The notes below the pieces were generated by a model. The model saw only the letters and a program-made list of their open reading frames with translations, was not told the DNA's origin and did not search any database. From a virus (lineage: Duplodnaviria > Caudoviricetes): a DNA stretch of 54,028 bases. The DNA is taken from IMG/VR virus record IMGVR_UViG_3300006754_000024, positions 1 to 54,028 of that record. One strand, 5' to 3'. Below, piece after piece: positions 24,987-52,722 of the stretch. Position 1 is the first letter of the stretch; the number at the start of each line of letters is the position of its first letter. The position numbers and the translations under genes were made by a program.

Positions 24987-24987
24987 A

Positions 24988-30811: not shown

Positions 30812-30820
30812 GATAGACGC

Positions 30821-32890: not shown

Positions 32891-32900
32891 GAGGCAAAAA

Positions 32901-33665: not shown

Positions 33666-33680
33666 GAGCAGGAGGGAAAT

Positions 33681-33842
33681 ATGATGTCCTACTACGCCGG
33701 CTGCGGCTGTGGCCCGAGCTGCGGCTGCGCTCCTTGTCGAACCGCCTACGGAAACTACGGCCGGTTTGATCCGAAAACGAATCTCATCCGAATCGGATTG
33801 GGAATCGGGCTGCTTGTACTCGTTTTGAAGTGGGGAAAGTAG
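33681..33842 (+). CDS. 53-aa Cys-rich tail-anchored peptide (not in the ORF track)
   Basis: GGAGG RBS at 33671-33675; MMSYYAGCGCGPSCGCAPCRTAYGNYGRFDPKTNLIRIGLGIGLLVLVLKWGK; fills the gap between neighbouring genes. Confidence 0.75.
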   Translation: MMSYYAGCGCGPSCGCAPCRTAYGNYGRFDPKTNLIRIGLGIGLLVLVLKWGK

Positions 33843-33843
33843 A

Positions 33844-38658: not shown

Positions 38659-38849
38659 GGGTTGGCTCCTGTAGCTACAGATGGTGCCACAGAGAATAAC
38701 CCTTCTCCCTTGACCGAACCAGGCCGAAGGTGTGAAGGTTATCGCGGGTGACGGTTCACTGGGCAAACAGGTTCGGACCACACTCACCGCACTCAACGCA
38801 CAGTTTTTATCCAAAAACGCCGCACCCACCCTTTTCACAAGGAGCAAAA

Positions 38850-40154
38850 ATGGCAACTCGTCGGTATTCACGGCGACGGCGCAACACAGGCGCTCTGCTC
38901 GTCAACCCACGCCGTCGGCGTCGGACCAGGAAGAAGAGGACTAGCGCGAAATCGCTACTCTCCCGCCTGCGCCGTCGCAAGACCACAAGTAGCAAACGCA
39001 AGCGCAGTGCAGCCGCGAAGAAGGCAGCAGCCACCCGGCGTCGCAACGCGACTCGTCGGAGCAACGCTGCCAAGCGTGCCGCTCGCACTCGTCGCCGCAA
39101 CGGAACCAAAAGGGGCCAGCGTCGCCGTACTGCTCGCCGGGCATACACCCGCCGCCGTAACGGTACAACTCGAGGGATGCGTCGCAAGACCGCTCGCCGA
39201 GCGTATACCCGTAGACGGCGCAATACTGGAGTCATGACAGGGATTCAGCAGAATCTCAAGAAGGTTCCAGTCGTTGGTGGAATGCTGAGCGATATCGTTG
39301 GGCTCGGTGTCCCTGCCGCGTTCGGTGCTATCTCGATCCTTCCGATCGAAATGGGACTGAAGGCCGGTGGACGGTACCTCCCCGAGAAGCTCCAAGCCGT
39401 TTCCTTCACCGTCGGAGGCCTCCTGATGGGTGCCCTGGCGAAGAAGTTCCTTCCCGCCGGGAAGTTCCGGGATCAAATCAGTGTCGCTCTCGCGACTGCT
39501 GGTGGTGCCGTCGACTTCTACCGCTGGCGACAGGGGCAAACCACAGTGGCGGCAATCGAAGTCGCTGAGGCTGCGACGGCCGGGTTCGGTGAGCTCGAAG
39601 TCATGAGCGGCTATGGTGAGCTCGAAGTCATGAGCGGATACGGTGGTGGCTACGGTGAGCTCGAAGTTATGAGCGGATACGGCGATATGGGGTACGATGT
39701 CGTAAATTTTGATGTAGCGGGGGCTGGCACTTCCCTCGGAGCGTATCTTAGTGATGCTTCGATGGCCGATGCCTATTATTCTGGGAGTGATCTGGGCGCC
39801 GCCGAGCGTACAGCAGCACTGGCCGGTCCTCGCCGTTTCATGCGCCGTTTTCCATCTCCGGGACGTAGGCTTCACCGCCTACGTCAAACCGGTTCTTCCC
39901 AATCCCAGCCCTCGGCTAACGCCGGGAAGCCGGGATGTGGGAAGAAGTGGATGATATGTCTCGTTGGGTTTGACAACTTTCAGAAAATTGCAGCTCTCCC
40001 CACCAAGGAGCGCAGACGGGTTATCCGTTCTCTGAAGCGTCAAGCCAAACAATCTCTTCCTGATATGCTCTCGACCGATGATTCGATGGATCCAAATACA
40101 GCGATGGATTCTACCGAAGGGTTCGGAGCCCTCATGTACGCTGGTGGCTACTAG
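38850..40154 (+). CDS. Protamine-like core/membrane precursor protein
   Basis: AAGGAG RBS; ~125-aa Arg-rich N-terminus with RRRN repeats; hydrophobic helices; ELEVMSGYG three times. Confidence 0.8.
   Translation: MATRRYSRRRRNTGALLVNPRRRRRTRKKRTSAKSLLSRLRRRKTTSSKRKRSAAAKKAAATRRRNATRRSNAAKRAARTRRRNGTKRGQRRRTARRAYTRRRNGTTRGMRRKTARRAYTRRRRNTGVMTGIQQNLKKVPVVGGMLSDIVGLGVPAAFGAISILPIEMGLKAGGRYLPEKLQAVSFTVGGLLMGALAKKFLPAGKFRDQISVALATAGGAVDFYRWRQGQTTVAAIEVAEAATAGFGELEVMSGYGELEVMSGYGGGYGELEVMSGYGDMGYDVVNFDVAGAGTSLGAYLSDASMADAYYSGSDLGAAERTAALAGPRRFMRRFPSPGRRLHRLRQTGSSQSQPSANAGKPGCGKKWMICLVGFDNFQKIAALPTKERRRVIRSLKRQAKQSLPDMLSTDDSMDPNTAMDSTEGFGALMYAGGY
39588..39683 (+). repeat. Coding tandem repeat, GELEVMSGY three times
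   Basis: ggtgagctcgaagtYatgagcggMtaY three times, with a 9-nt GGY-coding insert before the third copy. Confidence 0.9.
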
Positions 40155-40859: not shown

Positions 40860-40865
40860 TTCGCA

Positions 40866-40904
40866 CAGAAAGGGAGGGGCAAGCGATTGCCCCTCTCTCT
40901 TCTG
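40866..40904 (+). terminator. Terminator hairpin after the putative capsid gene
   Basis: GAGGGGCAA-GCGA-TTGCCCCTC stem with a GNRA loop, extended by pyrimidines. Confidence 0.7.
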
Positions 40905-40930
40905 GAATTTAACCTCGGACCGGAGCTCAT

Positions 40931-41554: not shown

Positions 41555-41564
41555 GGGGCCGACG

Positions 41565-42200
41565 ATGTCGACACGCAGGCCCACCCACATAGGGTACTAC
41601 GAGGATATGTCCCAGATCCCCGAGCCGGTTCCGGCTCCGGGGGAATGGAGCGACAAGGGACAGTGGCACAATCCTGCTGGAACCCTTCCTTTTCCCAATC
41701 CCACCAATATGCCCATCGGTGTGTGGAACGGCATTCCGACGATGCTGGTGTGGACTGCGGGAACGGCCCCCAGTGTGCGAACGGCCCAGTGGCGTAGTCC
41801 TGTATTCGATCTCCGGCCGGAGCAGCGTGCGGCCCGTGGTGAAGTACGAAACCAAGGAACCATTCCTATCTGGAAGCCCTCTACCGTGACAGGTGGAGCC
41901 GGCGGCCGTCTTTGGGTTCAGATCGGAGACTTTTCGACGCTCGCCGTTAGCGTGACAAGTATGGAGATGAACTTTCGCGAGCGAGGACATATCCAAGATC
42001 CGAACTCCATGTCTGTCATCTGTCCGAACGAGGACATCACTGACAAATACGTGCCAGGGATGCAGGATTGCATTCTGAGCTTCACTCCACCTGGTGAGGG
42101 CTACCCGGTACGCTACTGGCAGCTGATCCTACAGTTCGACGTGTACGATGCAACCCTGCCTTCAGATCCAGCTTTGCAGGTTGAGGGGAGCTACTACTAA
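41565..42200 (+). CDS. Putative structural beta protein
   Basis: Pro-rich arm and beta-strand pattern; lies in the capsid gene cluster. Confidence 0.5.
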   Translation: MSTRRPTHIGYYEDMSQIPEPVPAPGEWSDKGQWHNPAGTLPFPNPTNMPIGVWNGIPTMLVWTAGTAPSVRTAQWRSPVFDLRPEQRAARGEVRNQGTIPIWKPSTVTGGAGGRLWVQIGDFSTLAVSVTSMEMNFRERGHIQDPNSMSVICPNEDITDKYVPGMQDCILSFTPPGEGYPVRYWQLILQFDVYDATLPSDPALQVEGSYY

Positions 42201-42607
42201 TGCCTATTTTGGCCGATATCTCCCAAGCTGGGCCACCCGCCTCGAGTGGGACTGCCACCTGGTACCAGGAAGTCCTTCTCAACGCAGGCGGAGCTTTCAA
42301 CAGCCAGGCCTTGATGGTGCCCGCGCTCCCCGCGCTCACCTTTTGGGCTGAGGTCTTCAATGCGGGTGGCGTCGCCGTTACGCTTCAACCTCAGTTCGCT
42401 GCTCGAGGAACGACTAATGTGGTCTTGGGACAGCCCAACCCGGTTCCCACCTGGTTAGACCTGGCTCCGCCCGTCCTGATCCCCGCGTTCGGTGGCGGAG
42501 TAACTCTCAACAACTACATCTGCCCGTGCGTCTGGATCCGGATGGTGCTCACTCGAACCGCCGCCGTAAACACCAGTGTCCGCCTCTACATGGCTGGGAG
42601 CGTGTGA
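42200..42607 (+). CDS. Small beta-rich structural protein (penton/vertex candidate)
   Basis: TAATG coupling; 135 aa; hydrophobic beta strands. Confidence 0.5.
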   Translation: MPILADISQAGPPASSGTATWYQEVLLNAGGAFNSQALMVPALPALTFWAEVFNAGGVAVTLQPQFAARGTTNVVLGQPNPVPTWLDLAPPVLIPAFGGGVTLNNYICPCVWIRMVLTRTAAVNTSVRLYMAGSV

Positions 42608-45195
42608 TGCCTGGCTACAAGATCGTCCTTCGCAAAAACGGAGCCAAGCGTGGAGAGCTCACCGGCTACGCCACCAAGAGCTCGGCCGTCGCAGAGGCTC
42701 AGACCCTCGCTGACAGCGCCGGAGGCGGAGTCAAGGTGTACGTGGAGCCGGTGAAGGCCAAAGCCAACAGGAAGGCTCCCAGGCGTCGAAATACGCAGTT
42801 AAAAAGGGACCAGAAGGTAAAACTGAGCGATTCCGCTCTCTCCCGGAGGTACTCTGGCGATCGAGCTAAAGGAAAGCAGTGGCGGGGTACTATATTTGAA
42901 GTGGTCGGACCGCCAGGAAGTGGGGCGGGAGAATGGGGAGCCGAGATGTGGTCCGCCAACGGAGAAAAGGGGTACATCGTCGTAAACCAAACGGATCCTC
43001 ATGGGAGGTGGTACGCATTAGGAGATGTGGTCGCCGCATCCACCGCCACTAAGAAGGCTCCCAGGCGCAAGAAGAATAGCGACAGAGAGCTCGTCGCCTT
43101 CCCCGGAATAAGGAGGCCATCGGACTATCCGGGAGGAAAAAACAGCTACGACGAGGACTTCTTCCAGGGATACCGGGCCGGAGAGAAGGCCTTGGCTCGC
43201 AAACGCAAGACCCCTCTTTCGGGGGTGGACGCCGAGAGGTACTTTCGCAGGTATGGACATGGGCATGGTAGCTGGTGGATCAACGGATTCCGTGCCGCTA
43301 TCGCTGTGGACCGTGGAGAATATGCGACGAAGGACTACAAGATAGCGGTAAAGGTGGGCCTGGTTCATCCTCCGGGACGTTTCAATCCTAAGCGGAAGAA
43401 CAGGAAGACGAAGCACCGTCCAGGAAGCGCGAAGACCCCAGCTGGTTTTCTCTCCACCGAGGGCCAGAAGCTCGTGGTGAGGTCGAATATCACAGGGAAT
43501 ATCCTTCCTAAGAGCTGGACCGGGTTCGCTTTCAGCTTGGACGGAGACTCGGTCATGAAGATCGGGCGTTCGGGGGGCGAGCGTTCCTACGAGGTGGCCA
43601 AGCGGATTCGGAGATCGAACACCAGGAAGAACCCGACAACGGCCGAGGTCGCCAAGCTCGCAAAATGGCAGAACCTAACTGGGCTCTCGAAGTCGAAAAT
43701 CGACAAGCTCGCACAGGAAGCCTATCGCATGGGCGATGTAGGCCACATGAGCACGCTCCAGCTCGGGAAACACTTTTCTCGGTTCCTCCCCGCCAAGTCG
43801 AAGAGCACGCACACCAACCTGAGAGGATGGGGAGACTTTCTCTTCGAGCTCGGATGGTTGGAGCTCCCGCACCTTCCGCGTAAGAACCAGGGCTATGATC
43901 AAACCAAAAAGGTTCTTCAGCAGGCGTCTAAACTCATCGACCAGGGCAAATTCAAACAGGCCGATTCCTTAATCCGTGGTTCGGGTGGAAGCAGGGCAGA
44001 CCTATCGAATATTTTGGGCTCGTCCAGAATGAAGAAGATGGCAACCTGGGCTAGCGGTACCACCAGGCGGAAAAACTATTCGACTGGCGACGCCTGGCTC
44101 CAAGAGGCCGACACGGAAATGGAGGAGGAAGGCACCGTCGGAGCCTTCACCAAGCAGGCCAGGCGAGCCGGGTACAAGGATACAATGGCCTTCGCTCGAG
44201 CCGTCATGAAGGGCTGGCGGAGCGGGAAGAAAAAGGTCTACAACAAGAAGACCAGAAAGCAGCAAGGGATCACCCAAAAAACGATGTACCGGGCCAACTT
44301 CGCGATCAATGCTCAGAAGCGGCGGAATCCCCACGGAGCGCCCCAACGCATGACAATGGACCTGGGCGAATTCAGGTGGATCGCTGGCCCCTACTCGACC
44401 GTCGGGAAGGCAAACAAGGCGAAGGAAGCCTCTCACCATCGATCCTGGGGCGCCAGGTACCCCAAGACCTACACGCGCGTAAGGAAGGAAGGAGGCGCCT
44501 ACCATGTCTATTCTTACGATCCAGAGGTTGCCTCTCGTTACAACCCAGCATGGGGCGAGATGGCCGGCGCGGTAGGAAAGGGGCTCGGAAAGGCCGGCAA
44601 AGCCGCCTGGAAGGGCGCCAAGCGAGGAGCCCAGTACGGCTACGAGTACGGAAAGGAAGGAGCCGCTCGCGGAAAGGAGACGGCACAGGCGGCCGTGATC
44701 GCTGCCAACCTGAAGGACTTTCAGAGATGCGCCAAGAAGCTCCACATCACTCCGGGAGAGCTCCAACAGCTCGAGCCCTATGTCGACGCCATCGACAAGG
44801 CGCAGGCCCATATCGAGTCGACCCAAGAACGGCGCTCCTCGAGGGGAGCTCAGAGACAGACTGCTCTCGCCAAGAAATGGAACGGGAAGCGTCGGAATTC
44901 AACGCCTGGAAAACGTGGGTGGCACCCGGTACTTTTCGGCTCGAATCTGATAATCTCAGGTGTCGGCCGGGATACGAATGGGAACAAGGTCATCAAAGTT
45001 AGTTACCCCAACTCGAGAGCCTGGTCGATCCAGACTCTCGGAACGCCGATGCACGGGCTCTTGCGGGGCGTTACAGCGAGATATGAAATCCTGCCGGACA
45101 TCTCGAGCGCCATCGAGCCCATGCTCATCGACCACATCCGAAAGTACGGATCTGCAAAGCAAAAGAAGGGACTACGAGTCTACTCCGGCGGGTAG
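42607..45195 (+). CDS. Basic modular polyprotein of ~10 small modules separated by [RK][RK]N/NP
   Basis: TGATG start at 42607; delimiters every ~60-120 aa. Confidence 0.75.
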   Translation: MPGYKIVLRKNGAKRGELTGYATKSSAVAEAQTLADSAGGGVKVYVEPVKAKANRKAPRRRNTQLKRDQKVKLSDSALSRRYSGDRAKGKQWRGTIFEVVGPPGSGAGEWGAEMWSANGEKGYIVVNQTDPHGRWYALGDVVAASTATKKAPRRKKNSDRELVAFPGIRRPSDYPGGKNSYDEDFFQGYRAGEKALARKRKTPLSGVDAERYFRRYGHGHGSWWINGFRAAIAVDRGEYATKDYKIAVKVGLVHPPGRFNPKRKNRKTKHRPGSAKTPAGFLSTEGQKLVVRSNITGNILPKSWTGFAFSLDGDSVMKIGRSGGERSYEVAKRIRRSNTRKNPTTAEVAKLAKWQNLTGLSKSKIDKLAQEAYRMGDVGHMSTLQLGKHFSRFLPAKSKSTHTNLRGWGDFLFELGWLELPHLPRKNQGYDQTKKVLQQASKLIDQGKFKQADSLIRGSGGSRADLSNILGSSRMKKMATWASGTTRRKNYSTGDAWLQEADTEMEEEGTVGAFTKQARRAGYKDTMAFARAVMKGWRSGKKKVYNKKTRKQQGITQKTMYRANFAINAQKRRNPHGAPQRMTMDLGEFRWIAGPYSTVGKANKAKEASHHRSWGARYPKTYTRVRKEGGAYHVYSYDPEVASRYNPAWGEMAGAVGKGLGKAGKAAWKGAKRGAQYGYEYGKEGAARGKETAQAAVIAANLKDFQRCAKKLHITPGELQQLEPYVDAIDKAQAHIESTQERRSSRGAQRQTALAKKWNGKRRNSTPGKRGWHPVLFGSNLIISGVGRDTNGNKVIKVSYPNSRAWSIQTLGTPMHGLLRGVTARYEILPDISSAIEPMLIDHIRKYGSAKQKKGLRVYSGG

Positions 45196-45201: not shown

Positions 45202-48200
45202 ATGATCGAAGAACTCAAAAAGCGGATACGGAACGCTGGCACAGAGAGCTCGGAAAAACGAGAAGTACAGCGCGAGCTCGAGAGCCATGGACACCGGAAA
45301 CATCCAGAGTCCCACCAGGCCACCCTCGAAGACCGCAGGGTGGTACGCATGTACCTATGGAGGGCTACCCCGCTGGGGCACCTCTGCCTGGTTACCGGTC
45401 CCAGCGTGGAGCCCAGTCTCTACGAGCTCTACGAGGCCGCTCCAGGAGAAGAGCCCTCAGAGGTTTACTTCCCTTCAAAGCGAGGCAAGCCGGCTCTCAC
45501 CGTTCGCACGAATCCCCAGGCCCGAGTAGGCAAGGTCCGAGAGGCTAAGGACGGTAGCAAATACGTGCTTTGGAGGCCCGTATTAGCGGACGGCAGCCGA
45601 CCTCGCGTGTATCTGGACGCCGAGGAGCCGGGGATTGACGCCGAGCTCATAGATGTGATGGAAGCTCAGGAACAGCTGGCAGCTGGAAAGAGAGCGGTGG
45701 AGCGTCGCGTAAAGGAAGCCAAAAAGGAAGGGAAGCGGGGTATTTTCAAGGGAGGCTCCGGACGGAAGATCATAACTGGAGCTCCGAAGGCTAAGCCCAT
45801 GGAGCGGGCCGCCTCTCGCACGCCTCTTTTTGACTCTGAGGGAAAGGAATATCTCGCTACATATATGGTAATCCCAGCCCACAGGGACGGGATGGGAGAC
45901 CTTCGATCCTCGAACCTACCTGGTTCCTTCGAGGAGACTCCCCACTACCCCACCGTCTTCCAAGCCCGAAGCCTACAGCGACTCGGAGAGACGCGGAAGA
46001 TCGAGAAGATTGCCGCCAACCTGGACGCGGAAAGAGTTCTCCTCCCGCACAGCGATGCCACCCTGGGCACCCCGGTGGTCTGGGAGGGAGACGATAAAGA
46101 GCACAGAATCGCTGGAGAGCAAGTCTATACCCCGAAAGGCACCTACTATGTGCTGGGTGGGAACGGACGAGCAATCGCGATCCTGATGGCCCCCACGGGG
46201 AAATATCAGTCCTACTCGAGACGGGGAAGGTCTCTCTGGTCCGACGTGTGGCCCGCTGGGAGCTCTCCAGCTGGCACGAGAGACGTTCTGGTCCGCCTGG
46301 CCACCAAGCCCGACGGAACGCCACTGTCCTTCGCTCAGGCCCGTACTCTTGCGGGACGAACCCAGAAGAGCGCTTCTGGAGAAGAGTCTCCCATCGGAAA
46401 GGCTCTCTCGCTCATCCGTTCACTCGGCATCGAGCGCGTGGCCGATCTCCCGCCTTTTGTCTGGAAGGGGATAATCACCCAGGACAATGTGGAAGAGTTC
46501 CAGGAGTTCAATCCAGCCTTTGCGAGAGCGGTGTTTGCTTCGATGGGGGCAGCTCGAGCAGAGAGCTACCAGCAGGACTCGGCGCTTCTCGCTACGCTCT
46601 TCAACGACATTATGGTCGGCTACCTTCCCAGGCGCTTCCAGCTCCAAGGGTTCGTTTCTGAGAAACAGGAGCGAGCTCTACTCGCCGCTCTTCCTATTAT
46701 CGTCGCGATCCACCAGGGAGTTCAGGATCGATCGGTCCAAGACAAATGGGACCTTTTCCCGTTGCTCGATGCGGCTTCTCGTTTCGCCCAGGCAATCAAG
46801 AACAAGTCGGATTCGCAGGCGATTGCCATGGTCGAGGCCGCTGCCTCTCAGATTCAGATGGGCGAAGGCACGGGAATAGCGGAGAAGTTCAAGTCTCTGT
46901 TCGACGAACTCCCTCTCTTGGGTGTTTTGTTCGGCCTGGTCCTCAAGAAAGCAGAGAAGTCTCGCGACCCGGCATTGACGGTAGAGAAATACCTCACCCC
47001 CTACGCTGCCGCAGCATTCGATCCCGGAGAGAGCGCTGCCCAGTCGGGACTGTTTGCGGCTCCAGGCCGTCCCGATGCCGGCAAAGACCCCACCGAGATC
47101 CTTGCTACCGAGCTCGGCGTCCGCCTACCGCGCCGGATGCGCGAGGCGACGGTGGAGCAGGGGCGGTTGATCGCGAATCCCAAATTCCCCATGGGAGGAG
47201 AAAAAAAGCCGTGGGCTCCGGCGATGGTCGAGGCCATCGACCAGTTCCCGGTGGGCGCCATCGTCAAGCTTCGACCAACGCAGGGGTGGAGTCGCACATT
47301 CCCTCATCGGATCCTCTCCGATTCCGTCCTCGATAACCACTACCGGGTCGGAACCCACACCTGGATGGAGAACCTCCAGAGCGTATTCCTGGAGACGGAC
47401 CCCGTACACCCTGAGACTCACGAGCTACTGAGGGATAGTCGTGGTGGCAAGTACAACTACCAGGTGCTCGGTACCGAGGATGTGGAGCTCGTCTGGAGCC
47501 CAGAGCCAGAGCCGGACCCGGAGGAGAGCCAACAACGCCTCTTGAACCGGAAAGGACAGCTCCGCTTGCGGAAGGCCGGGAGCAGGATCCTCGAGGAGCT
47601 CTACCTACGCGGCCCTACCCCCTACGCTGAGACTCCCGAAGGAAAGCTCGCTGATGGACCGCAAGAGCTCCTCGATAAAGGGCTGGCGTCGAAGAAGACG
47701 TGCATCGCAGCTGAACATACCCTTTACGACCGGGAGACCTGTGTTCTGCGCCTGACGAAGAGGGGAAGGGACTACGCGAAGAATCGCCGTAGAGCCGAGC
47801 GCACGCACCAGGCCGCCAGGCAGGGGAAGCTGTGGAACAAAGGCCCCCACTATTTCGATGAACTCGGAGAGCTCGGAGCTCCGTCGATTGGTGAGAAGGG
47901 GTACAAGCCGGCTCCCGATTTCGGCAACGCCTACGGAGGGCAGACACCCTACGAGCTCGCGGACCGCCTGGTGGGGAACGCTGAGGTATTGATGGAAGAG
48001 CCCGAGCTCTACTGGGCCTACTGTGCCGAGCTCCCGGAGGCTTGTGGAGGCCTGGCCGATTCGGATTTCTCCTTAGCGGATATGCTTCAAGTCCCTTTTT
48101 CCGGTCCGGACGGAAAGCGAATGACTGAAGCGGAGCGGGCGGGAATTGCGCTTTCTGCCCTGGCCGTCACTGCGGAAGCGCTGCCTGACAGGTGGAGCGG

Positions 48201-51200
48201 AGAGAAGATCATACTCGGCGAGAGAAAGAGCAGGAAGGGACCCACTACCTTGATCGAGGCTCGAAGAGGCGACTCCGGGGAGGTTCCGATGTGGGCTGCG
48301 ACTGCGGCCCTTACCGACTGGCTGGCCTCGCTGGTTCCCGGCTATTCCCAGGTCTTGCGCCTGGTTAACATCGACAAGAAGACAGCACAGGACTTCATCG
48401 AGAAGCACCACTCGGCGCTCCCCTACCTAAACGCTCGTGGCCTGCTCTTTGCCCTTGGATTGATGAAGGGCTCCCGCCTGGTGGCCGTAGCGACGGTTAA
48501 CTCGAATACGGCCAACCTGAGCAAGACCCGTAGGGTATTGAGCGGCGAGCTCGACGTGAAAGATGTCCTCGAGCTCACCCGTGTGGCATCGGATGGGAGC
48601 GTAAAGGGGGCTGCGTCGAAGCTCGTGGCCCGTGTGATCGATATCATGGAGCAGGGCAAGCGGAGCGGAGGCGACGCACCCGCGCTCCTAATGACTTACC
48701 AGCTCGCTACCGAGTCTGGAACGACCTACAAGGCCTTGAAGGACAAGGGATTGAGGCCCGTGGCAGAGGTAAAGGGCTCAGCTCCGAGCGGAGCTCGTGG
48801 TGGAGACCCGGCCGAAGACCGAGCTCTGGCACAGGTGGACAAAATACGATGGGAGTGCTGCGTCGACCCTCCCGCGATGCGGGCGGACTGGGACATCCTG
48901 GGACGCGAGCAGAAGACTCTCTGGAACCCGAAGGAAGGGGAAACCTCCTGGTTCAAGGGGGATCAGGTTCGATTCACGGGTGCCCAGAGCGAACATGATG
49001 GGTTCTGGCAGGCCGTCTATATTGACGGGCACCGGAAAGGCCAGATCGTCTGGGTCTACCCTGAACATGCAGGCGTTCGGATGCTCCACGGAGAAGAAAA
49101 ACTCCAGCCCCGCGACAATCCGAAGAAGTCTCCGCCTGGCTCCTTCAAGTCCTGGGAAGAATACTATCTGTGGAAGATGAACGGGATCAACAGAGCCATG
49201 CTGATCACGGAAGACGCTATCCGAAGCATGGACCCGGAGCGAGCCAACATGCCCGGTGGCGCGGTGGCCCACTACCGCACCCTCGAGAAGAAACGCCGCG
49301 ATCTCCTCGAGCACATGGAGCTCGCAGGGGTGAAGCTCAGGAACCCCGGAGAGCCAGAGGACCGGTTCGCCCCCTTCCTGAACGCAAAGGTGGGCCAGGT
49401 GTTTCTGGTTAGGGCTACGGACTATCCTGGAGCTCCGAAACGGAAATGGATGAAAGACACGCTGCTGGCCTATCGGGTCTACAAAAAGCCCGATATCTCG
49501 GCGGTCGCGCCCTACCTTATCGACCCGGAGGGCGCTGAGATCGAGGTCGAGCCGGTAGGCGGCACGAAGGGACGCGACGGAACCTTCCTAATCCGACCCA
49601 ATTTTGAGAAAGATAAGCTCCGCACTATGATCCTCCTCCGGGATAAAAACGGCCACCATGTGACGGGGCACCCCATCGAGTTCGTCCGCCATGCTGCCGG
49701 CCACTTGGATCTACCCGCTGAGAGCTCGGGCCAGACGGTGATGTTCAACCCCGAAGAAGCACCCGGCCAGGTAGAGTTCGAGTTCCTGGGAGCGGTGCCC
49801 GTTCTTCACTTTGCCTCTGGGACGAACAGGCCTGGAAGTATCCGGGGATTCGCAGACCTGGGCAAAGCCGTGGGCTCTGCCTTCGCCTCTGTAGACAAAA
49901 AGTCCGGCCGCTGGGTTCGCGAATGTCGCGGACCCTGTCTCGAGGAGCTCGCTCGAGCCGCTTCGTTGGGTATACCGGTGTTTCTGGATTCAGGTGCATT
50001 TAGCGAGGTCGACTTCCCCGAAGACGGTCCGCCAGTTGTAGCGGTGCCCATACCAGAAGAGAGCTGGGCCGAGAGGTTCGATGTCTATCGTTACCTGGCC
50101 GACGCGGGAGGGAAACTGGCCAACGTGGTAGCGCCCGACATGGTAGGCCACCAGGTGGAGAGCTTTCAACGCCTATCCGCCTACAAAGACGAGGTGAACG
50201 AGCTCCTGGATATGGGCGCATCGGTTCTCGTGCCGCTCCAGTTAGGCCCGATTCCGCTTCACGAATATCACGACCAGGTCGACGAGCTCCTGGGCCGGAA
50301 GGACTGGATCCCAGCTCTTCCGTTCCAGAATGCGGCTACCTCCCCTACGCAGCTGGGAGAATACCTGCGCAAAAAGACTCCAGTTCGTCTTCATCTCCTG
50401 GGAATAGGACCCAGGAAGAAAGCAGCTACAGCCGTGGCTCAAGAGATCAGAGAGAACTCTCCGGGTACCCAGGTACAGATGGACAGTGTGGTGATCAAGG
50501 CGCACGTAGGGCGCAAGAGACGGAAGACCGGAGATCCTCGAGGGGAGATAACAGCTGCTCAAGACGAGGCTCGAGAGCAGCTGCTCGAGGAACGCTACAT
50601 CGGCTCCCAGCGAGAGTCCGTTCCTGACTACACGGACCTGGTAGGAATGCCGAGCTCCTGGGCATCCGAGGCGGCACTGAAGCGACTCTCGAGTGCGGCC
50701 CAACTCTCGAGCTCGGAGCGGAAAGAGCTCATCGCCGACCCCGACGAGTTCTTCCAGCGCGAAACCTTCGCTGGCATCGATCACGGGATCCCGTTCTACC
50801 TCGAGCTCGAGCAACCTATTGAGCTCGAGCTCGGTAAGCGTTTCCACTCTCTCGAGACTTTCGAGGCCCAACGCATGGGAATCCGAGAGGGGCTCAAGGG
50901 AATCTACCCAGGGGGCCAGGAATACATTACCAACCCGGAGCAAGAAGAGGGGCACGTTCCGGGAATCGACACTCCGGGACATCCCGGACTTCAGATGGGT
51001 CTTTTCGGTGGTGCATCCTATTCGGACGAGCAAACCGCATCGCCTGGCAGAATAACTATCTTGAACATGGGACTTGGCCGCGACTCGCTCACCATGCTCT
51101 GTCTGCTCGCAGATGGAGAGCTCGTCTGGGACGGTAAGAAACACGGACCCGAAGACGTGGACGCCGTCGTGTTCTCCGATACAGGCGGAGAATGGAAGCA

Positions 51201-52722
51201 CACCATGGACCTAATTCCGAAGGTCGAGAAGTTTGCCAAGAAGCACGGCATCCGATGGCTCAACCTTCAGAAGCCACAGGCAGGCACTAAGAGCGGAGAA
51301 CTACGCGACAGCTGGCTCCAGGCCATGAAAACAGCGAGACAAGATCGAGAGCAAGGATGGGCCGAAGTATATCGGGAAGTGATTGCTCCGATGTACCGCG
51401 AAAAAGATGTCCGGCTCGATGAGATCCGCGCCGAAAAGAAGGCGGAGATCAAAGAGAAAAGAGCCGAGCTCAAGAACCAGGGAATGGACAAGGATCAGAT
51501 GGCACCGGAGCTCGACGCTATCAGAGAGAAATACGCCGTCAGGATGAAGGCTCTCAAAAAGAAGTACAAGGCCAAGGCTGCGGAGATCAAAAAGGAAGGA
51601 GGATTCGCAGGGAAGGCGGAGCGTGCGTGGTGGGCTCCTCAAGACAAGGAGCGGAGGCTCCACTATGGCACCATCGAAGAGCGAGCGGCTGCGGGTGTCT
51701 ATCACTTGCGCCCTGAGATCCTGGTGGACTTCGCCTGGAAAGGAACGATCCCCCTCCGCGACGATAAGAGCTGCACGGGAAACCACAAGGTGGCTCCGAT
51801 TCGGAAGGTGACAGAGGACCTGGCCATCGAAAAGTTCGGCCCATGGGCTACTAATACTAAGTGGGGGAGCGAGGTCCGTGACAAGAAGCGCCTTCCTCAC
51901 TTGAATCTGATCGGTCTCGCCGCCGACGAAACTGACAGGCTCGCGAAAGGGGGAGACGTGGGCTGCTTCGAGGCGAGCTACGTTACCGAGGCCTACCCGT
52001 TGGAGGAGATGGGAATCGCGAAAAACGACGAGCAGCCCTATCTCGATAGCTGCGGATTCGGAGAGACTCGAAAAAGCGGGTGCTGGCTGTGCCCCTACCA
52101 ACCTCTCGGATGGTGGTGGGCGCTCTCTGTCCTTCATCCGGACAAGTTCGAGCGGGCAGCACAGGCGGAGTACCAGGCGACACTCCGGGATCCAAAGCTC
52201 TATTTCATCGGACGCAAGAAGAAGGGGAAGTCTCTGTCGCTGGCCGAGGCGGTAAAGGTATGGAGAGAAGAGAATCCAGACGCCTCTCCGGAAGAAGTGC
52301 TCGACAAGCAATATGCAAAGTGCAAGGTGAAGTTTGGGAAGAAGAAGAACCCAGTAGCACCCGACTCCTGCTGTCCCGACTGCAACCGATTCGTGGACCT
52401 ATGGAACCAGTTCGGAGAACCTGGATGGCTAGAACGCTACGGCTCGAGCTCGAGCACCAGGCCCAACACTCCGGCGTCTGGGGTTCTCGTCAACACGGGA
52501 AGCAAGCTGTCGATTCAAAGCCTTTCCTTCGATCGAGCTCTATTCAACAAGACCGAGGCGACGCGCTGGGCCAGGCAGCACGGGTTTTCGGTTCCGAAAG
52601 TCCACCTGACACCGAACCTGATTAAGATACGCCAGACTCATCCCTCCAAGTTCAAGCGCGGATCGTTCCGAACCAAGTCACTGACAGAAGGAGTAAAGGC
52701 AATTGTAGGAGTTCCACGATGA
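45202..52722 (+). CDS. 2506-aa polyvalent protein with ParB-like, Mom-like GNAT, TGT/DpdA-like and PAPS-reductase-like domains
   Basis: YPTVFQAR/GTPVVW/GGNGR (ddrB-like ParB); AQDFIEKHH/LELTRVASDG/TYQLATESG (Mom/XF1762-like); FLDSGAFS/APD/PLQ/HLLG (TGT fold); MGLGRDS/FSDTGGE/YPL/KSGCWLCPY (PP-loop). Confidence 0.85.
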   Translation: MIEELKKRIRNAGTESSEKREVQRELESHGHRKHPESHQATLEDRRVVRMYLWRATPLGHLCLVTGPSVEPSLYELYEAAPGEEPSEVYFPSKRGKPALTVRTNPQARVGKVREAKDGSKYVLWRPVLADGSRPRVYLDAEEPGIDAELIDVMEAQEQLAAGKRAVERRVKEAKKEGKRGIFKGGSGRKIITGAPKAKPMERAASRTPLFDSEGKEYLATYMVIPAHRDGMGDLRSSNLPGSFEETPHYPTVFQARSLQRLGETRKIEKIAANLDAERVLLPHSDATLGTPVVWEGDDKEHRIAGEQVYTPKGTYYVLGGNGRAIAILMAPTGKYQSYSRRGRSLWSDVWPAGSSPAGTRDVLVRLATKPDGTPLSFAQARTLAGRTQKSASGEESPIGKALSLIRSLGIERVADLPPFVWKGIITQDNVEEFQEFNPAFARAVFASMGAARAESYQQDSALLATLFNDIMVGYLPRRFQLQGFVSEKQERALLAALPIIVAIHQGVQDRSVQDKWDLFPLLDAASRFAQAIKNKSDSQAIAMVEAAASQIQMGEGTGIAEKFKSLFDELPLLGVLFGLVLKKAEKSRDPALTVEKYLTPYAAAAFDPGESAAQSGLFAAPGRPDAGKDPTEILATELGVRLPRRMREATVEQGRLIANPKFPMGGEKKPWAPAMVEAIDQFPVGAIVKLRPTQGWSRTFPHRILSDSVLDNHYRVGTHTWMENLQSVFLETDPVHPETHELLRDSRGGKYNYQVLGTEDVELVWSPEPEPDPEESQQRLLNRKGQLRLRKAGSRILEELYLRGPTPYAETPEGKLADGPQELLDKGLASKKTCIAAEHTLYDRETCVLRLTKRGRDYAKNRRRAERTHQAARQGKLWNKGPHYFDELGELGAPSIGEKGYKPAPDFGNAYGGQTPYELADRLVGNAEVLMEEPELYWAYCAELPEACGGLADSDFSLADMLQVPFSGPDGKRMTEAERAGIALSALAVTAEALPDRWSGEKIILGERKSRKGPTTLIEARRGDSGEVPMWAATAALTDWLASLVPGYSQVLRLVNIDKKTAQDFIEKHHSALPYLNARGLLFALGLMKGSRLVAVATVNSNTANLSKTRRVLSGELDVKDVLELTRVASDGSVKGAASKLVARVIDIMEQGKRSGGDAPALLMTYQLATESGTTYKALKDKGLRPVAEVKGSAPSGARGGDPAEDRALAQVDKIRWECCVDPPAMRADWDILGREQKTLWNPKEGETSWFKGDQVRFTGAQSEHDGFWQAVYIDGHRKGQIVWVYPEHAGVRMLHGEEKLQPRDNPKKSPPGSFKSWEEYYLWKMNGINRAMLITEDAIRSMDPERANMPGGAVAHYRTLEKKRRDLLEHMELAGVKLRNPGEPEDRFAPFLNAKVGQVFLVRATDYPGAPKRKWMKDTLLAYRVYKKPDISAVAPYLIDPEGAEIEVEPVGGTKGRDGTFLIRPNFEKDKLRTMILLRDKNGHHVTGHPIEFVRHAAGHLDLPAESSGQTVMFNPEEAPGQVEFEFLGAVPVLHFASGTNRPGSIRGFADLGKAVGSAFASVDKKSGRWVRECRGPCLEELARAASLGIPVFLDSGAFSEVDFPEDGPPVVAVPIPEESWAERFDVYRYLADAGGKLANVVAPDMVGHQVESFQRLSAYKDEVNELLDMGASVLVPLQLGPIPLHEYHDQVDELLGRKDWIPALPFQNAATSPTQLGEYLRKKTPVRLHLLGIGPRKKAATAVAQEIRENSPGTQVQMDSVVIKAHVGRKRRKTGDPRGEITAAQDEAREQLLEERYIGSQRESVPDYTDLVGMPSSWASEAALKRLSSAAQLSSSERKELIADPDEFFQRETFAGIDHGIPFYLELEQPIELELGKRFHSLETFEAQRMGIREGLKGIYPGGQEYITNPEQEEGHVPGIDTPGHPGLQMGLFGGASYSDEQTASPGRITILNMGLGRDSLTMLCLLADGELVWDGKKHGPEDVDAVVFSDTGGEWKHTMDLIPKVEKFAKKHGIRWLNLQKPQAGTKSGELRDSWLQAMKTARQDREQGWAEVYREVIAPMYREKDVRLDEIRAEKKAEIKEKRAELKNQGMDKDQMAPELDAIREKYAVRMKALKKKYKAKAAEIKKEGGFAGKAERAWWAPQDKERRLHYGTIEERAAAGVYHLRPEILVDFAWKGTIPLRDDKSCTGNHKVAPIRKVTEDLAIEKFGPWATNTKWGSEVRDKKRLPHLNLIGLAADETDRLAKGGDVGCFEASYVTEAYPLEEMGIAKNDEQPYLDSCGFGETRKSGCWLCPYQPLGWWWALSVLHPDKFERAAQAEYQATLRDPKLYFIGRKKKGKSLSLAEAVKVWREENPDASPEEVLDKQYAKCKVKFGKKKNPVAPDSCCPDCNRFVDLWNQFGEPGWLERYGSSSSTRPNTPASGVLVNTGSKLSIQSLSFDRALFNKTEATRWARQHGFSVPKVHLTPNLIKIRQTHPSKFKRGSFRTKSLTEGVKAIVGVPR

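What the first reader, a model, noticed from the sequence alone, without database searches (positions are those of the whole stretch)
45202..52722. Giant protein stringing several DNA-modification-type enzyme domains together, separated by NP motifs
Seen: one 2506-aa ORF with a ParB-like domain (~45850-46400), a Mom-like GNAT (~48355-48900), a TGT fold (~49790-50500) and a PAPS-reductase-like domain (~51050-52330). NP dipeptides (45511, 47176, 48925, 49117, 49342, 49747, 50932, 52348) and LLN/LWN (47545, 47836) fall at apparent domain boundaries. Known: Mom acylates DNA adenine, DpdA inserts 7-deazaguanines, DndC/SspD-type PAPS reductases act in phosphorothioation, and ddrB-like ParB domains occur in phage polyvalent proteins. 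Inference: a virion-packaged polyprotein cut at Asn into a toolkit that modifies or protects the incoming genome.
Basis: partly seen in the sequence, partly recalled or inferred. Interest (0 to 1): 0.92.

Follow-up and report, generated by a model that had tools for sequence, protein, structure and literature searches.

The report
Giant modular viral protein, Asn-Pro joints
An uncultivated bacterial virus encodes a 2506-residue protein made of about a dozen self-contained, mostly DNA-acting modules that are swapped between relatives exactly at short Asn-Pro joints, which look like cutting or docking signals and are worth testing at the bench.

Summary
ORF 45202-52722 (+) is intact (2506 aa). 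It has 11 long relatives (1637-3424 aa) carrying the same modules in different orders. NP is about 3-fold enriched (134 observed, 46 expected over 12 proteins). Homology breaks fall on it: 100 of 557 alignment ends stop exactly on the Pro. Codons vary, so selection is on the protein. In an AlphaFold model, joints NP104 and NP659 lie in low-confidence linkers and NP437 lies inside a helical domain.

Modules:
- ParB/Srx fold: supported.
- Mom-like and PP-loop/PAPS-reductase-like: supported only by sub-threshold HMM hits.
- The "TGT" module: a TIM barrel nearest to TGT, but without the Zn site or any family HMM hit.

New findings:
- Asn is more constant than Pro at joints.
- Upstream ORFs carry [RK][RK]N repeats.
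- A Qxx[LM]F motif resembling the bacterial sliding-clamp-binding motif is about 14-fold enriched, often directly before NP.

Cleavage at Asn is plausible but untested. No protease was found, and sister lineages use Pro/Ala linkers instead. Virion packaging is unsupported beyond gene position. Verdict: a real, new variant of phage polyvalent proteins with conserved joint punctuation. Interest 0.75.

The parts
45202..52722 (+). Giant ORF, 2506 aa (P0001)
   Evidence: 11 long homologs
45202..45513 (+). M0, aa 1-104: N-terminal module, first in 11 of 12 family proteins; two helices plus a four-stranded sheet; ends ...RTN
   Evidence: no clear fold match (best Z 4.7)
45511..45516 (+). Joint N104-P105, invariant in the 11-sequence alignment; model residues 104-108 have pLDDT below 50
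45514..47178 (+). M1, aa 105-659: hallmark module (poorly modelled head, ParB/Srx core, helical tail)
45814..46386 (+). ParB/Srx-fold core, aa 205-395 (FQAR and GGNGR motifs invariant)
46510..46515 (+). N437-P438: in-domain NP at a helix start, not a joint (blocks 431-450 have pLDDT 93-95; 10 homologs span it)
47041..47055 (+). QSGLF (aa 614-618): clamp-binding-like motif in the tail of M1, recurrent at this place in the M1 family
47176..47181 (+). Joint N659-P660, invariant in the alignment; model residues 648-665 have pLDDT below 50
47179..47547 (+). M2, aa 660-782: variable small module of unknown fold; ends QQRLL-N|R
47548..47838 (+). M3, aa 783-879: small module, duplicated in P0005 and P0006; ends QGKLW-N|K
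47839..48927 (+). M4, aa 880-1242: Mom-like acyltransferase module (core aa 1050-1180); ends QKTLW-N|P
48928..49119 (+). M5, aa 1243-1306: small module, unknown; ends ...PRDN|P
49120..49344 (+). M6, aa 1307-1381: small module found at other positions in P0003, P0005, P0006 and P0007; ends ...KLRN|P
49345..49749 (+). M7, aa 1382-1516: unknown; ends QTVMF-N|P (QTVMF = nt 49732-49746)
49750..50934 (+). M8, aa 1517-1911: TIM-barrel module, TGT-like; invariant D80, D130, D245 (module numbering); no Zn site; ends ...YITN|P
50935..52350 (+). M9, aa 1912-2383: PP-loop / PAPS-reductase-like module with a long helical insert; QMGLF at nt 50992-51006 near its head
52351..52494 (+). M10, aa 2384-2431: Cys-rich tail that always follows M9 in the homologs
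52495..52719 (+). M11, aa 2432-2506: C-terminal module, last in 9 of 12 family proteins
42526..45195 (+). Upstream 889-aa ORF cut into pieces of about 60-110 aa by [RK][RK]N or NP sites; probably under the same Asn rule
38748..40154 (+). 468-aa ORF with five RRRN sites and one VNP in an Arg-rich repeat region

Best explanation
The ORF is a polyvalent protein of an uncultivated virus of bacteria. It is a chain of about twelve autonomous modules, at least four of them built to act on DNA or nucleotides:
- a ParB/Srx-fold NTP-binding module;
- a Mom-like acyltransferase;
- a TGT-like TIM barrel with three invariant Asp;
- a PP-loop / PAPS-reductase-like module.

The modules are joined by short disordered joints that carry a conserved punctuation: [hydrophobic or basic]-x-Asn, usually followed by Pro.

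Most likely mechanism. The chain is a precursor cut after the Asn. The cut would come either from Asn-succinimide (peptide-lyase) chemistry, which Asn-Pro favours, or from a lineage-specific Asn-directed protease encoded outside the window. The released enzymes would then work on replicating viral DNA. Several would be held there by Qxx[LM]F motifs that resemble the bacterial beta-clamp-binding motif and sit next to the cut sites.

Shown: the modularity, the exchange of modules at NP, protein-level selection on Asn-Pro, the linker location of two joints, the enrichment of the motifs, and the folds of two modules.

Inferred: cleavage, clamp binding, the chemistry of each enzyme, and the time and place of action.
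For: 1. Module order differs among the 12 proteins, and homology ends on NP.

2. Three modules show the rule directly.
- The methyltransferase module has NP 6-11 aa before its GGTA motif in 7 of 7 copies, and NP 145-149 aa after it in 6 of 7.
- The TIM module's tail keeps Asn in 10 of 10 copies, while the next residue is P in 5, R in 2, K in 2 and E in 1. Asn is therefore the constant residue.
- Among Mom-like shorter homologs, 29 of 48 simply stop 18-40 aa after the K-x-x-W-E motif, where P0001 has NP at +28. Of the 19 that continue, 9 have NP there.

3. Seven different Asn-Pro hexamers are used at 55 sites of six giant ORFs, following background codon usage.

4. In the AlphaFold model of aa 1-665, NP104 and NP659 lie in stretches with pLDDT below 50, and NP437 lies inside a helical domain.

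5. The same Asn rule appears in neighbouring genes. [RK][RK]N occurs 9 times against 1.2 in shuffles in the 889-aa ORF, and 5 against 0.5 in the 468-aa ORF; 0 of 500 shuffles reach either count. Stand-alone ParB-module genes in L020, L021 and L022 begin MRRR(KR)NP.

6. Cleavage at Asn-Pro has precedent. [quoted passage not shown] 7. Q..[LM]F occurs 52 times against 3.8 +/- 1.9 in shuffles in the 12 proteins, and 22 of the 52 are followed by NP. In 145 family representatives it occurs 126 times against 19.4. Four of the 145 end in the motif. The other 41 window ORFs hold 3 in 12,757 aa. The bacterial clamp-binding consensus is QL(S/D)LF (passage of PMC9690074).

8. Complex prediction with E. 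coli DnaN and aa 1488-1528 gave weak support: score 0.48, best of 3 controls 0.00.
- The mark was reached by 51 of 78 solved complexes and 2 of 108 mismatched pairs.
- At 0.60 or under, only 5 of those 78 solved complexes passed, as did all 4 mismatches that passed (of 180).
- The three runs agree in at least 54% of contacts, and the partner's pLDDT is at least 38.
- Clamp-peptide complexes have been solved, so this pass may reflect likeness rather than binding.
Against: - There are no protein-level data of any kind.
- No peptidase domain was found in the giant protein at E <= 1. The invariant residues of M0 are Pro, Gly, Leu, Tyr and Ala, not a catalytic set. No protease-like fold turned up in aa 1-665, and there is no Peptidase_C5 match in the window.
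- Known Asn-lyase sites sit in a folded catalytic environment. These joints sit in linkers behind unrelated modules.
- The residue after Asn is not always Pro (R, K, E, T, S, G, A). That weakens the purely chemical Asn-Pro reading.
- Sister lineages of the same family show no NP excess and use Pro/Ala-rich linkers: P0130 has 0 NP against 3.0 expected, and P0131 has 1 against 4.3. The modules can therefore work without NP joints.
- None of the 48 Mom-like shorter homologs ends in Q..[LM][FWLY], so that motif belongs to the joint, not to the enzyme.
- The clamp used in the prediction is a stand-in from E. coli; the host is unknown.
Confidence: 0.45

Rival explanations
1. The protein is never cut. 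It works as one multi-enzyme chain. The joints are flexible linkers that carry short docking motifs (Qxx[LM]F for the sliding clamp, or for some viral partner). Asn-Pro is a lineage-inherited linker element that ends one module and starts the next without being a cleavage site.
For: - Polyvalent proteins include cases transferred or packaged unprocessed: N4 virion RNAP, ArdC and TraC1 (passages of PMC5512222).
- No protease was found.
- Sister lineages join the same modules with Pro/Ala-rich linkers.
- Q..[LM]F also occurs away from Asn: QSGLFAA, QMGLFGG, and at the C-termini of 4 of 145 representatives.
Against: - An invariant Asn at joints behind unrelated modules, kept while flanking residues change, is more constraint than a passive linker needs.
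- The motif survives at the very N-terminus of stand-alone genes (MRRR(KR)NP), where nothing needs linking.
- [RK][RK]N repeats divide the neighbouring 889-aa and 468-aa ORFs into small units.
Confidence: 0.33
2. The polyprotein is packaged into the virion, cut at Asn inside it, and injected with the DNA. The enzymes then modify or protect the incoming genome.
For: - DdrB-like ParB domains are typical of phage polyvalent proteins predicted to be packaged, and P1 DdrB is processed and incorporated into heads (passages of PMC5512222).
- The gene ends a conserved block: a 468-aa basic protein, then three beta-rich proteins of 215, 207 and 211 aa, then a variable 'string' protein. This block is syntenic in 9 related loci. 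It follows about ten tail-anchored membrane proteins, which looks like a structural region.
- M0 at the N-terminus and M11 at the C-terminus are constant and could be targeting parts.
Against: - No portal, MuF, capsid or terminase was recognised among the neighbours scanned.
- Clamp-binding-like motifs fit enzymes that work at replication forks, not on a just-injected genome.
- Mom-, TGT- and PP-loop-type reactions need cofactors and time. This point rests on general knowledge, not on a test here.
- Packaging is wholly untested.
Confidence: 0.2
3. The NP pattern is not functional at the protein level. It is either a chance or compositional effect, or the footprint of a DNA-level recombination signal that promotes module shuffling.
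For: Short conserved boundary sequences are known to mediate mosaicism in phage genes (recalled, not checked here). Related sequences inflate the counts, since P0005/P0006, P0002/P0004 and P0009/P0010 are close pairs.
Against: - 10 of 5000 shuffles reach the NP count, and 0 of 5000 reach the count of Q..[LM][FWL]N.
- NP is the most over-represented of the frequent dipeptides in 64 family representatives of 1000 aa or more: ratio 1.83, 341 observed.
- Seven different hexamers encode the 55 NP sites, with background codon usage, so no DNA motif is conserved.
Confidence: 0.02

Closest known systems
Polyvalent proteins of phages and conjugative elements (Iyer, Burroughs, Anand, de Souza, Aravind 2017, PMC5512222), including phage P1 DdrB and DarB
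   Same: Many unrelated effector domains in one viral polypeptide. A DdrB-like ParB domain. DNA-methylase modules in relatives (PF13489, PF00145). Mosaic, fast-changing architectures. Processing is proposed for some members.
   Different: No MPTase or other peptidase domain, and no MuF or portal link. The words 'PAPS', 'TGT', 'PP-loop', 'linker' and 'sliding clamp' each occur 0 times in that paper's main text; I could not see its supplementary architecture lists. A conserved Asn-Pro joint and Qxx[LM]F joint motifs are not described there.
Asparagine peptide lyases and Asn-Pro autocleavage: MEROPS N families (reovirus mu1 Asn-42, YscU), and RsgI anti-sigma factors
   Same: Cleavage at an Asn, in several cases at Asn-Pro. 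Some occur inside virus particles.
   Different: There the Asn sits in a dedicated fold with helper residues, and each protein has one site. Here there are 8-10 sites per protein, in disordered joints behind unrelated modules, and Pro is sometimes replaced. Cleavage here is not shown.
tRNA-guanine transglycosylase (TGT) and DpdA DNA transglycosylases
   Same: TIM barrel. TGT gives the best structural matches: Z 12.6, rmsd 4.0 A, 231 aligned; Foldseek E 4e-6. Three invariant Asp occur in a comparable order (against passages of PMC10164549).
   Different: No Pfam or NCBIfam hit at E <= 1. No profile hit to any PDB sequence. No CXCX2CX22H zinc site, since the module has only two Cys. Other TIM barrels score within 1 Z unit. 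It belongs to a separate family with 116 shorter homologs, some in Acidobacteria genomes.
Phage Mu Mom (adenine carbamoylmethyl-transferase, GNAT-like) and the XF1762 family
   Same: HMM similarity over the core: phrog_1384 E 7.5e-9, NF045478 E 6.9e-10 over 143 of 143 profile positions, PF25680 E 2.6e-4.
   Different: The Pfam and NCBIfam scores are below their curated cut-offs. The module has a 170-aa N-terminal extension. Its activity is unknown.
PAPS reductase / DndC-type PP-loop enzymes
   Same: phrog_424 E 5.6e-13. A PP-loop-like NMGLGRDS motif and a CxxC near the C-terminus, visible in the sequence. Relatives carry an additional canonical copy with SGGKDS (PF01507 in 3 of 11 homologs).
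   Different: Pfam PF01507 reaches only E 0.028. A helical insert of about 120 aa is present. No partner genes of the Dnd or Ssp type were seen.
Bacterial beta-clamp-binding motif proteins (consensus QL(S/D)LF)
   Same: A Qxx[LM]F pentapeptide in disordered termini and linkers, sometimes as the last five residues. Weak support from complex prediction.
   Different: Position 3 is usually Arg or Gly. The motif is repeated several times per protein and is often fused to Asn-Pro. No binding has been measured, and the host's clamp is unknown.

Membership tests
Phage polyvalent proteins (Iyer et al. 2017) | Two or more unrelated effector or catalytic domains in one polypeptide of a virus or mobile element | tested here: met
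   ParB/Srx, Mom-like, TIM-barrel and PP-loop modules in one ORF of an IMG/VR viral contig
Phage polyvalent proteins (Iyer et al. 2017) | Association with virion packaging (MuF or portal fusion or neighbourhood, late structural context) | tested here: inconclusive
   No MuF or portal hit. The gene follows a conserved block of beta-rich and basic proteins of unknown role.
DdrB-like ParB (PF18763) / ParB-Srx fold | HMM match above the gathering score | tested here: not met
   20-21 bits against a cut-off of 27.6. PF18763 is, however, precomputed for 5 of 11 homologs.
DdrB-like ParB (PF18763) / ParB-Srx fold | ParB/Srx fold with the Gly-x-x-Arg nucleotide-binding motif | tested here: met
   Eight of the nine best matches in the wide VIA search are ParB/Srx-fold proteins over aa 205-395; the other is a MATE-type transporter aligned to the helical tail. 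PadC Z 8.0, KorB 7.5, pNOB8 ParB 7.0, sulfiredoxins 5.7 and 4.9, SbnI 5.5, SerK 5.3, Spo0J 4.9. GGNGR is invariant. The motif's role is recalled, not tested.
TGT / DpdA transglycosylases | (beta/alpha)8 TIM barrel | tested here: met
   AlphaFold model with pLDDT 90.1 and pTM 0.87. TGT is the top match.
TGT / DpdA transglycosylases | Family HMM membership (PF01702 or NCBIfam models) | tested here: not met
   0 families at E <= 1 in Pfam and NCBIfam. 0 PDB sequences at E <= 10 with a 45-sequence profile.
TGT / DpdA transglycosylases | Three invariant active-site Asp (general acid, base recognition, nucleophile) | tested here: inconclusive
   D80, D130 and D245 of the module are invariant in 45 sequences. 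The order resembles Asp95, Asp130, Asp256 of DpdA. No residue-level superposition was available.
TGT / DpdA transglycosylases | Structural Zn site CXCX2CX22H | tested here: not met
   The module has only two Cys (aa 1575 and 1579), both before the first invariant Asp.
Mom family (PF25680) / XF1762 (NF045478) | HMM match above the curated cut-off | tested here: not met
   21.1 bits against 27.1, and 38.9 against 50. phrog_1384 gives E 7.5e-9. A working resemblance remains likely.
PAPS reductase / DndC-type PP-loop enzymes | HMM match and PP-loop motif | tested here: inconclusive
   phrog_424 E 5.6e-13. PF01507 scores 14.9 bits against a cut-off of 22.5. A variant motif NMGLGRDS stands in place of SGGxDS (the canonical motif is recalled).
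Asparagine peptide lyases | Self-cleavage of the peptide bond after a conserved Asn | not testable with these tools
   Needs protein chemistry. Only the invariance of Asn at joints is shown.
Asparagine peptide lyases | Asn held in a dedicated fold with helper residues | tested here: not met
   Joints 104 and 659 lie in segments with pLDDT below 50 between domains. The upstream modules are unrelated to one another.
Beta-clamp-binding proteins | Qxx[LM]F-type pentapeptide in a disordered terminus or linker | tested here: met
   52 observed against 3.8 expected. All 6 Q..[LM][FWL] sites of P0001 lie at or near module ends. 4 of 145 representatives end in the motif.
Beta-clamp-binding proteins | Binding to the hydrophobic cleft of DnaN | tested here: inconclusive
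   Complex prediction gave weak support only: 0.48 against a best control of 0.00. At 0.60 or under, 5 of 78 solved complexes passed, as did all 4 passing mismatches. Run agreement at least 54%, partner pLDDT at least 38. The E. coli clamp is a stand-in, and similar complexes have been solved.

The most novel reading that the evidence does not exclude
A lineage of double-stranded-DNA viruses of bacteria makes true polyproteins. A conserved [hydrophobic or basic]-x-Asn|Pro punctuation is cut after Asn, by linker-borne Asn-lyase chemistry or by a new Asn-specific viral protease. The cut releases a changeable kit of DNA-modifying enzymes, each left with a terminal sliding-clamp-binding motif that parks it on replicating DNA. 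The same Asn rule chops the neighbouring 889-aa protein into small units. It also chops the Arg-rich 468-aa protein into short basic peptides, much as adenovirus core proteins are processed (that comparison is recalled).
Probability: 0.25. Interest if true: 0.9.

Novelty: new variant of a known kind. Interest (0 to 1): 0.75.

Why it matters
Polyvalent phage proteins are known, but how their many domains are kept independent, exchanged and deployed is not. This family offers three things.

- A precise rule that can be tested at the bench. Modules are exchanged at an Asn(-Pro) joint that is under protein-level selection.
- If the joints are cut, this would be a polyprotein strategy, with an Asn-directed cleavage mechanism, in a prokaryotic dsDNA virus. 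It would also give a compact self-releasing linker for protein engineering.
- If the Qxx[LM]F motifs bind the sliding clamp, viral DNA-modification enzymes would be coupled to the replication fork. I found no report of this in my searches.

The family also contains a large uncharacterised TIM-barrel family related in fold to TGT/DpdA. It has 116 shorter homologs, some in bacterial genomes, and may catalyse an unknown base exchange or modification.

Tried and rejected
Searches that found nothing
- No match in 50,697 deposited phage records (tblastn) for the whole protein, its ParB part, the TIM module or the 215-aa neighbour. No cultured relative with proteomics could therefore be used.
- A single-protein scan of viral contigs found nothing. 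The alignment scan found one IMG/VR locus and 27 metagenome loci.
- phmmer of the Mom-like and PP-loop modules against PDB sequences gave only chance-level rows. The TIM profile gave none.
- Foldseek on the aa 1-665 model had a best E of 0.72. Only the wide VIA search recovered the ParB/Srx fold.
- PHROGs and Pfam on 30 neighbouring ORFs named only a helicase, a Sak4-like protein, an integrase and cell-wall hydrolase-like proteins. No capsid, portal, terminase or protease was named.
- Peptidase_C5 (adenain) had 0 matches in the window. The four metagenome loci were not held and so were not searched.

Tests that were not informative
- Family proteins end in Asn in 8 of 145 cases, against an overall Asn frequency of 2.6%. 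Many of these sequences are fragments, so this says little.
- I tested whether stand-alone Mom-like enzymes carry a C-terminal clamp motif. None of 48 does, so the motif belongs to the joints.

Readings considered and rejected
- 2A-type ribosome skipping: the residue after NP is not conserved, and that mechanism is eukaryotic (recalled).
- N-glycosylation sequons: Pro at +1 excludes them (recalled).
- A helix N-cap: true for NP437 but not for the joints.
- A DNA-level recombination signal.

Tools and files not available
- The look-up of encoding contigs is marked closed and was not called.
- Supplementary files of papers were not consulted. The architecture lists of PMC5512222 and the family alignments of PMC10164549 could bear on whether these modules or joints were seen before.

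Literature searches for phage polyproteins cut at Asn, or for clamp-tethered phage DNA-modification enzymes, listed nothing relevant.


Full report
THE OBJECT

The window is a 54,028-bp linear IMG/VR viral contig that CheckV rates about 35% complete. ORF 45202-52722 on the + strand starts with ATG and is open for 2506 codons. A whole-length search of the 5.8-billion-protein collection returned 11 relatives of 1637-3424 aa from metagenomes. There is no tblastn match in 50,697 deposited phage genomes for the whole protein, its ParB part, its TIM module or the conserved 215-aa neighbour. This is an uncultivated lineage.

MODULARITY

BLASTP of the protein against its relatives gives blocks of 33-67% identity that occur in different orders in different proteins. 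In the query the blocks end near residues 104, 660, 782, 879, 1243, 1306-1311, 1372-1389, 1516-1523, 1902-1918 and 2421-2438.

A signature-motif map of the 12 proteins shows the reordering:
- P0001: N-terminal module, ParB, small modules, Mom-like, small modules, TIM barrel, PP-loop, Cys-rich tail, C-terminal module.
- P0009: N-terminal module, TIM barrel, methyltransferase, ParB, PP-loop, second PP-loop.

Relatives also carry modules that P0001 lacks: a SAM methyltransferase (PF13489, 7 of 11), a C5 DNA methylase (PF00145, 1 of 11) and a canonical PAPS reductase (PF01507, 3 of 11).

THE ASN-PRO JOINTS

Frequency:
- NP occurs 10 times against 3.45 +/- 1.74 in shuffles; 10 of 5000 shuffles reach 10.
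- It occurs 134 times against 46.3 expected over the 12 proteins.

Position relative to homology breaks:
- I took the 1028 alignment ends at which both proteins continue by more than 30 aa. Of these, 29% lie within 3 aa of an NP, against 3% of random positions. The median distance is 12 aa against 72.
- The peak is sharp. 100 of 557 right ends stop exactly on the Pro and 28 on the Asn. Left ends peak 2 to 0 residues before the Asn.
- About half of the ends (277 of 557 and 299 of 471) lie more than 8 aa from any NP. These include joints where Pro is replaced, indels inside modules and ordinary fraying of BLAST alignments.
- The 12 proteins include three close pairs, so the counts are not independent events.

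Three modules make the rule concrete:
- The methyltransferase module has NP 6-11 aa before its GGTA motif in 7 of 7 copies. NP follows 145-149 aa after the motif in 6 of 7. The exception, P0011, has RRN-G.
- The tail of the TIM module keeps the Asn in 10 of 10 copies, while the next residue is P (5), R (2), K (2) or E (1).
- Among 59 shorter Mom-like homologs, 48 have the K-x-x-W-E tail motif. Of those, 29 simply end 18-40 aa after it, which is where P0001 has its NP at +28. Of the 19 that continue, 9 have NP at that place. The other 10 come from other lineages and use other linkers.

So the joint stands where stand-alone genes have their stop codon. Asn is the most constant residue of the joint.

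WHERE SELECTION ACTS, AND WHERE THE JOINTS LIE

The 55 NP sites of six giant ORFs use seven different hexamers, with background codon usage. No DNA signal is conserved.

An AlphaFold2 model of aa 1-665 was built from 24 aligned sequences and has a mean pLDDT of 78.
- It folds the N-terminal module (aa 1-95), a ParB-like core (aa 207-410) and a helical tail (aa 430-640).
- The stretches with pLDDT below 50 include 104-108 and 648-665, which are the two joints.
- NP437 lies at the start of a helix in blocks with pLDDT 93-95. It is invariant, and all homologs span it.

All three were tested and none was met. The other seven joints of P0001 were not modelled.

WHAT THE MODULES ARE

ParB:
- The Pfam ddrB-ParB hit is below the cut-off (E 4e-4).
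- The family is precomputed for 5 of 11 homologs.
- Eight of the nine best rows of the Foldseek-independent structure search are ParB/Srx-fold proteins aligned to aa 205-395; the other is a MATE-type transporter aligned to the helical tail: PadC Z 8.0, KorB 7.5, pNOB8 ParB 7.0, sulfiredoxins 5.7 and 4.9, SbnI 5.5, SerK 5.3, Spo0J 4.9.
- Foldseek itself found nothing.

Mom-like:
- phrog_1384 E 7.5e-9, NF045478 (XF1762) E 6.9e-10 over the whole profile, PF25680 E 2.6e-4.
- The Pfam and NCBIfam hits are below their curated cut-offs.

PP-loop / PAPS-reductase-like:
- phrog_424 E 5.6e-13 and PF01507 E 0.028.
- It has a variant PP-loop and a long helical insert.

The 'TGT' module (aa 1517-1911):
- It has 116 shorter homologs, many of 356-400 aa and some from Acidobacteria genomes.
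- A 45-sequence alignment gives a model with pLDDT 90. It is a TIM barrel.
- The best matches are TGTs: Foldseek E 4e-6 with TM only 0.33-0.36, and VIA Z 12.6 with rmsd 4.0 A over 231 residues. Other TIM barrels are tied, for example a mannanase at Z 12.0.
- Three Asp are invariant, as in TGT and DpdA (passages of PMC10164549).
- The Zn site CXCX2CX22H, conserved in those families, is absent, because the module has only two Cys.
- No family HMM or PDB profile matches.

It works like a TGT-type enzyme at most. It is not a member of that family.

Five modules remain unknown: aa 660-782, 783-879, 1243-1306, 1307-1381 and 1382-1516. The two terminal modules are also unknown. For aa 2432-2506 the Atlas's nearest clusters are 70-77-aa viral hypothetical proteins at score 0.91, which is a lead only.

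A SECOND JOINT MOTIF

Many joints read Q-x-(R/x)-[LM]-[FWL]-N-P.

Enrichment:
- Q..[LM]F occurs 52 times in the 12 proteins, against 3.8 +/- 1.9 in shuffles (maximum 9 in 200 shuffles). 22 of the 52 are followed by NP.
- In P0001, Q..[LM][FWL]N occurs 4 times against 0.03; 0 of 5000 shuffles reach it.
- The other 41 ORFs of the window hold 3 Q..[LM]F in 12,757 aa.

Occurrence without Asn:
- QSGLFAA sits in the tail of the ParB module and QMGLFGG before the PP-loop module.
- In 145 representatives of the ParB-module family the motif occurs 126 times against 19.4, mostly followed by G.
- Four of those proteins end in it: QVGLF, QGLLF, QTSLF and QVGMF.
- Stand-alone TIM-family proteins often begin MLFDL... 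or M..Q..LF. By the looser pattern Q..[LM].?[FLWY], 18 of 80 have such a motif in the 35 aa before the F[AS]SG motif.

This matches the bacterial sliding-clamp-binding motif QL(S/D)LF in form and in placement (passage of PMC9690074). That Pol II ends in QLGLF and that Hda carries the motif N-terminally is recalled, not checked.

I ran one complex prediction, E. coli DnaN with aa 1488-1528. The verdict was weak support.
- Score 0.48, best of 3 controls 0.00.
- The mark was reached by 51 of 78 solved complexes and 2 of 108 mismatched pairs.
- At 0.60 or under, only 5 of those 78 solved complexes passed, as did all 4 mismatches that passed.
- The runs agree in at least 54% of contacts, and the partner's pLDDT is at least 38.
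- Clamp-peptide complexes have been solved, so the pass may come from likeness. The clamp is also a stand-in for an unknown host's.

Against a module-inherent clamp motif: none of the 48 Mom-like shorter homologs ends in the motif. It is a property of the joints.

THE SAME ASN RULE IN THE NEIGHBOURS

- The 889-aa ORF just upstream (42526-45195) has [RK][RK]N 9 times against 1.2 in shuffles, plus FNP, KNP, RNP and YNP sites. Together these cut it into pieces of about 60-110 aa.
- The 468-aa ORF (38748-40154) has RRRN five times in an Arg-rich repeat. For both ORFs, 0 of 500 shuffles reach the observed count. The shuffles ignore the local clustering of basic residues.
- Stand-alone ParB-module genes in L020, L021 and L022 begin MRRR(KR)NP, and window ORF 26216 begins with a basic leader ending in NP.

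A joint motif kept at the start of a stand-alone gene is hard to explain as a passive linker. It fits a processing or targeting signal.

HOW IT MOST LIKELY WORKS

I put 0.45 on the precursor reading. In it, the chain is cut after the joint Asn and the released enzymes act on replicating viral DNA, several tethered by clamp-binding-like motifs.

- The chemistry has precedent. Asn peptide lyases include viral coat proteins cut inside particles, and RsgI autocleaves at Asn-Pro.
- Those sites sit in dedicated folds. These joints are linkers, and Pro is not obligatory. A lineage-specific Asn-directed protease is therefore at least as likely as self-cleavage.
- No protease was found in the protein or in the 35% of the genome at hand.
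- The main rival (0.33) is an uncut multi-enzyme chain whose joints are docking linkers. It is favoured by sister lineages that join the same modules with Pro/Ala-rich linkers and show no NP excess: P0130 has 0 against 3.0, and P0131 has 1 against 4.3.
- Chance or a DNA-level signal is practically excluded.

COMPARISON AND NOVELTY

The protein belongs with the polyvalent proteins of Iyer et al. 2017. I read passages of that paper. In its main text the words PAPS, TGT, PP-loop, linker and sliding clamp do not occur. Its supplements were not visible to me.

What appears to be new:
- the conserved Asn(-Pro) punctuation at which modules are exchanged;
- its extension to neighbouring genes;
- the clamp-binding-like joint motif;
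- the module set.

My literature searches listed no phage polyprotein cut at Asn and no clamp-tethered phage DNA-modification enzyme.

The ParB-module family is sizeable: 1609 cluster representatives at E <= 1e-3, 212 at <= 1e-10 and 115 at <= 1e-30. The 150 listed are 99 to 5032 aa long. NP is enriched 1.83-fold in the 64 representatives of 1000 aa or more (341 observed against 185.9), but unevenly.

I rate this a new variant of a known kind, with interest 0.75.

Noticed in passing
window 42526-45195 (+): The 889-aa ORF directly upstream is a string of pieces of about 60-110 aa separated by [RK][RK]N or NP sites (N89, 184, 287, 369, 454, 517, 601, 673, 791). [RK][RK]N occurs 9 times against 1.2 in shuffles. 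Its middle part (aa 514-649) recurs in L003 and L010, while the rest is variable.
   Followed up: partly
window 38748-40154 (+): The 468-aa ORF has an Arg-rich repeat region with five RRRN sites and one VNP. Hydrophobic segments and three GELEVMSGYG repeats follow. Its homologs lie upstream of the giant gene in 8 related loci. If cut after Asn, it would yield short basic peptides.
   Followed up: partly
window 23114-36611 (+): Ten of the 13 ORFs examined here end in a single hydrophobic helix followed by a basic tail (tail-anchored membrane proteins). [LMIV]-x-G-Y-G occurs 11 times in 7 ORFs between 23114 and 40154. That resembles the adenovirus protease consensus (M/L/I)XGX-G, which I recall rather than checked. 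No Peptidase_C5 match was found in the window.
   Followed up: partly
window 40212-42607 (+): Four beta-rich ORFs of 215, 207, 211 and 135 aa. The first three are syntenic upstream of the giant gene in 9 or 10 related loci. The Atlas gives only beta-sandwich neighbours for the 215-aa protein, with no named family above chance. Together with the membrane-protein block, this hints at a membrane-containing virus, perhaps not a tailed one. The capsid type is unresolved.
   Followed up: partly
L020:2709, L021:9821, L022:6639; window 26216: Stand-alone ParB-module genes start MRRR(KR)NP, and window ORF 26216-27451 starts with a basic leader ending in NP. The joint motif is thus kept at the very N-terminus of separate genes.
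   Followed up: partly
L022, minus strand, about 15.9-16.2 kb: A 104-aa ORF opposite to the main coding strand begins with four repeats of an Arg run followed by NP. I did not check whether it is a real gene.
   Followed up: no
P0130, P0131, P0134, P0137 (relatives; loci L008-L013): A sister lineage of giant proteins shares the same N-terminal and ParB modules but has no NP excess. It uses Pro/Ala-rich low-complexity linkers (EPPP, APAP) and still keeps G-L-F-G motifs.
   Followed up: partly
window 49750-50934 and P0013-P0128: The TIM-barrel module belongs to an uncharacterised family with 116 shorter homologs. Some are in Acidobacteria genomes, one source names one of them 'T4 beta protein', and some carry PF26345. 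Many stand-alone members begin MLFDL or M..Q..LF.
   Followed up: partly
window 2113-2799, 6382-8569 (-), 9086-10693 (-), 12175-13110, 14074-14868: The recognisable genes elsewhere in the window are a peptidase or baseplate-hub-like cell-wall hydrolase domain, endolysin-like proteins, a DNA helicase (phrog_16, E 4.5e-85), a Sak4-like protein and a tyrosine integrase. The integrase suggests the virus may be temperate.
   Followed up: no
L028:3-18973: In this distant relative the N-terminal module, a 2405-aa ORF, a PP-loop ORF, a TIM ORF and a ParB ORF lie in a row in different frames. They are either separate genes or one gene broken by frameshifts. NP is enriched in them as well: 12 against 3.4 in the 2405-aa ORF and 7 against 1.6 in the ParB ORF.
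   Followed up: no
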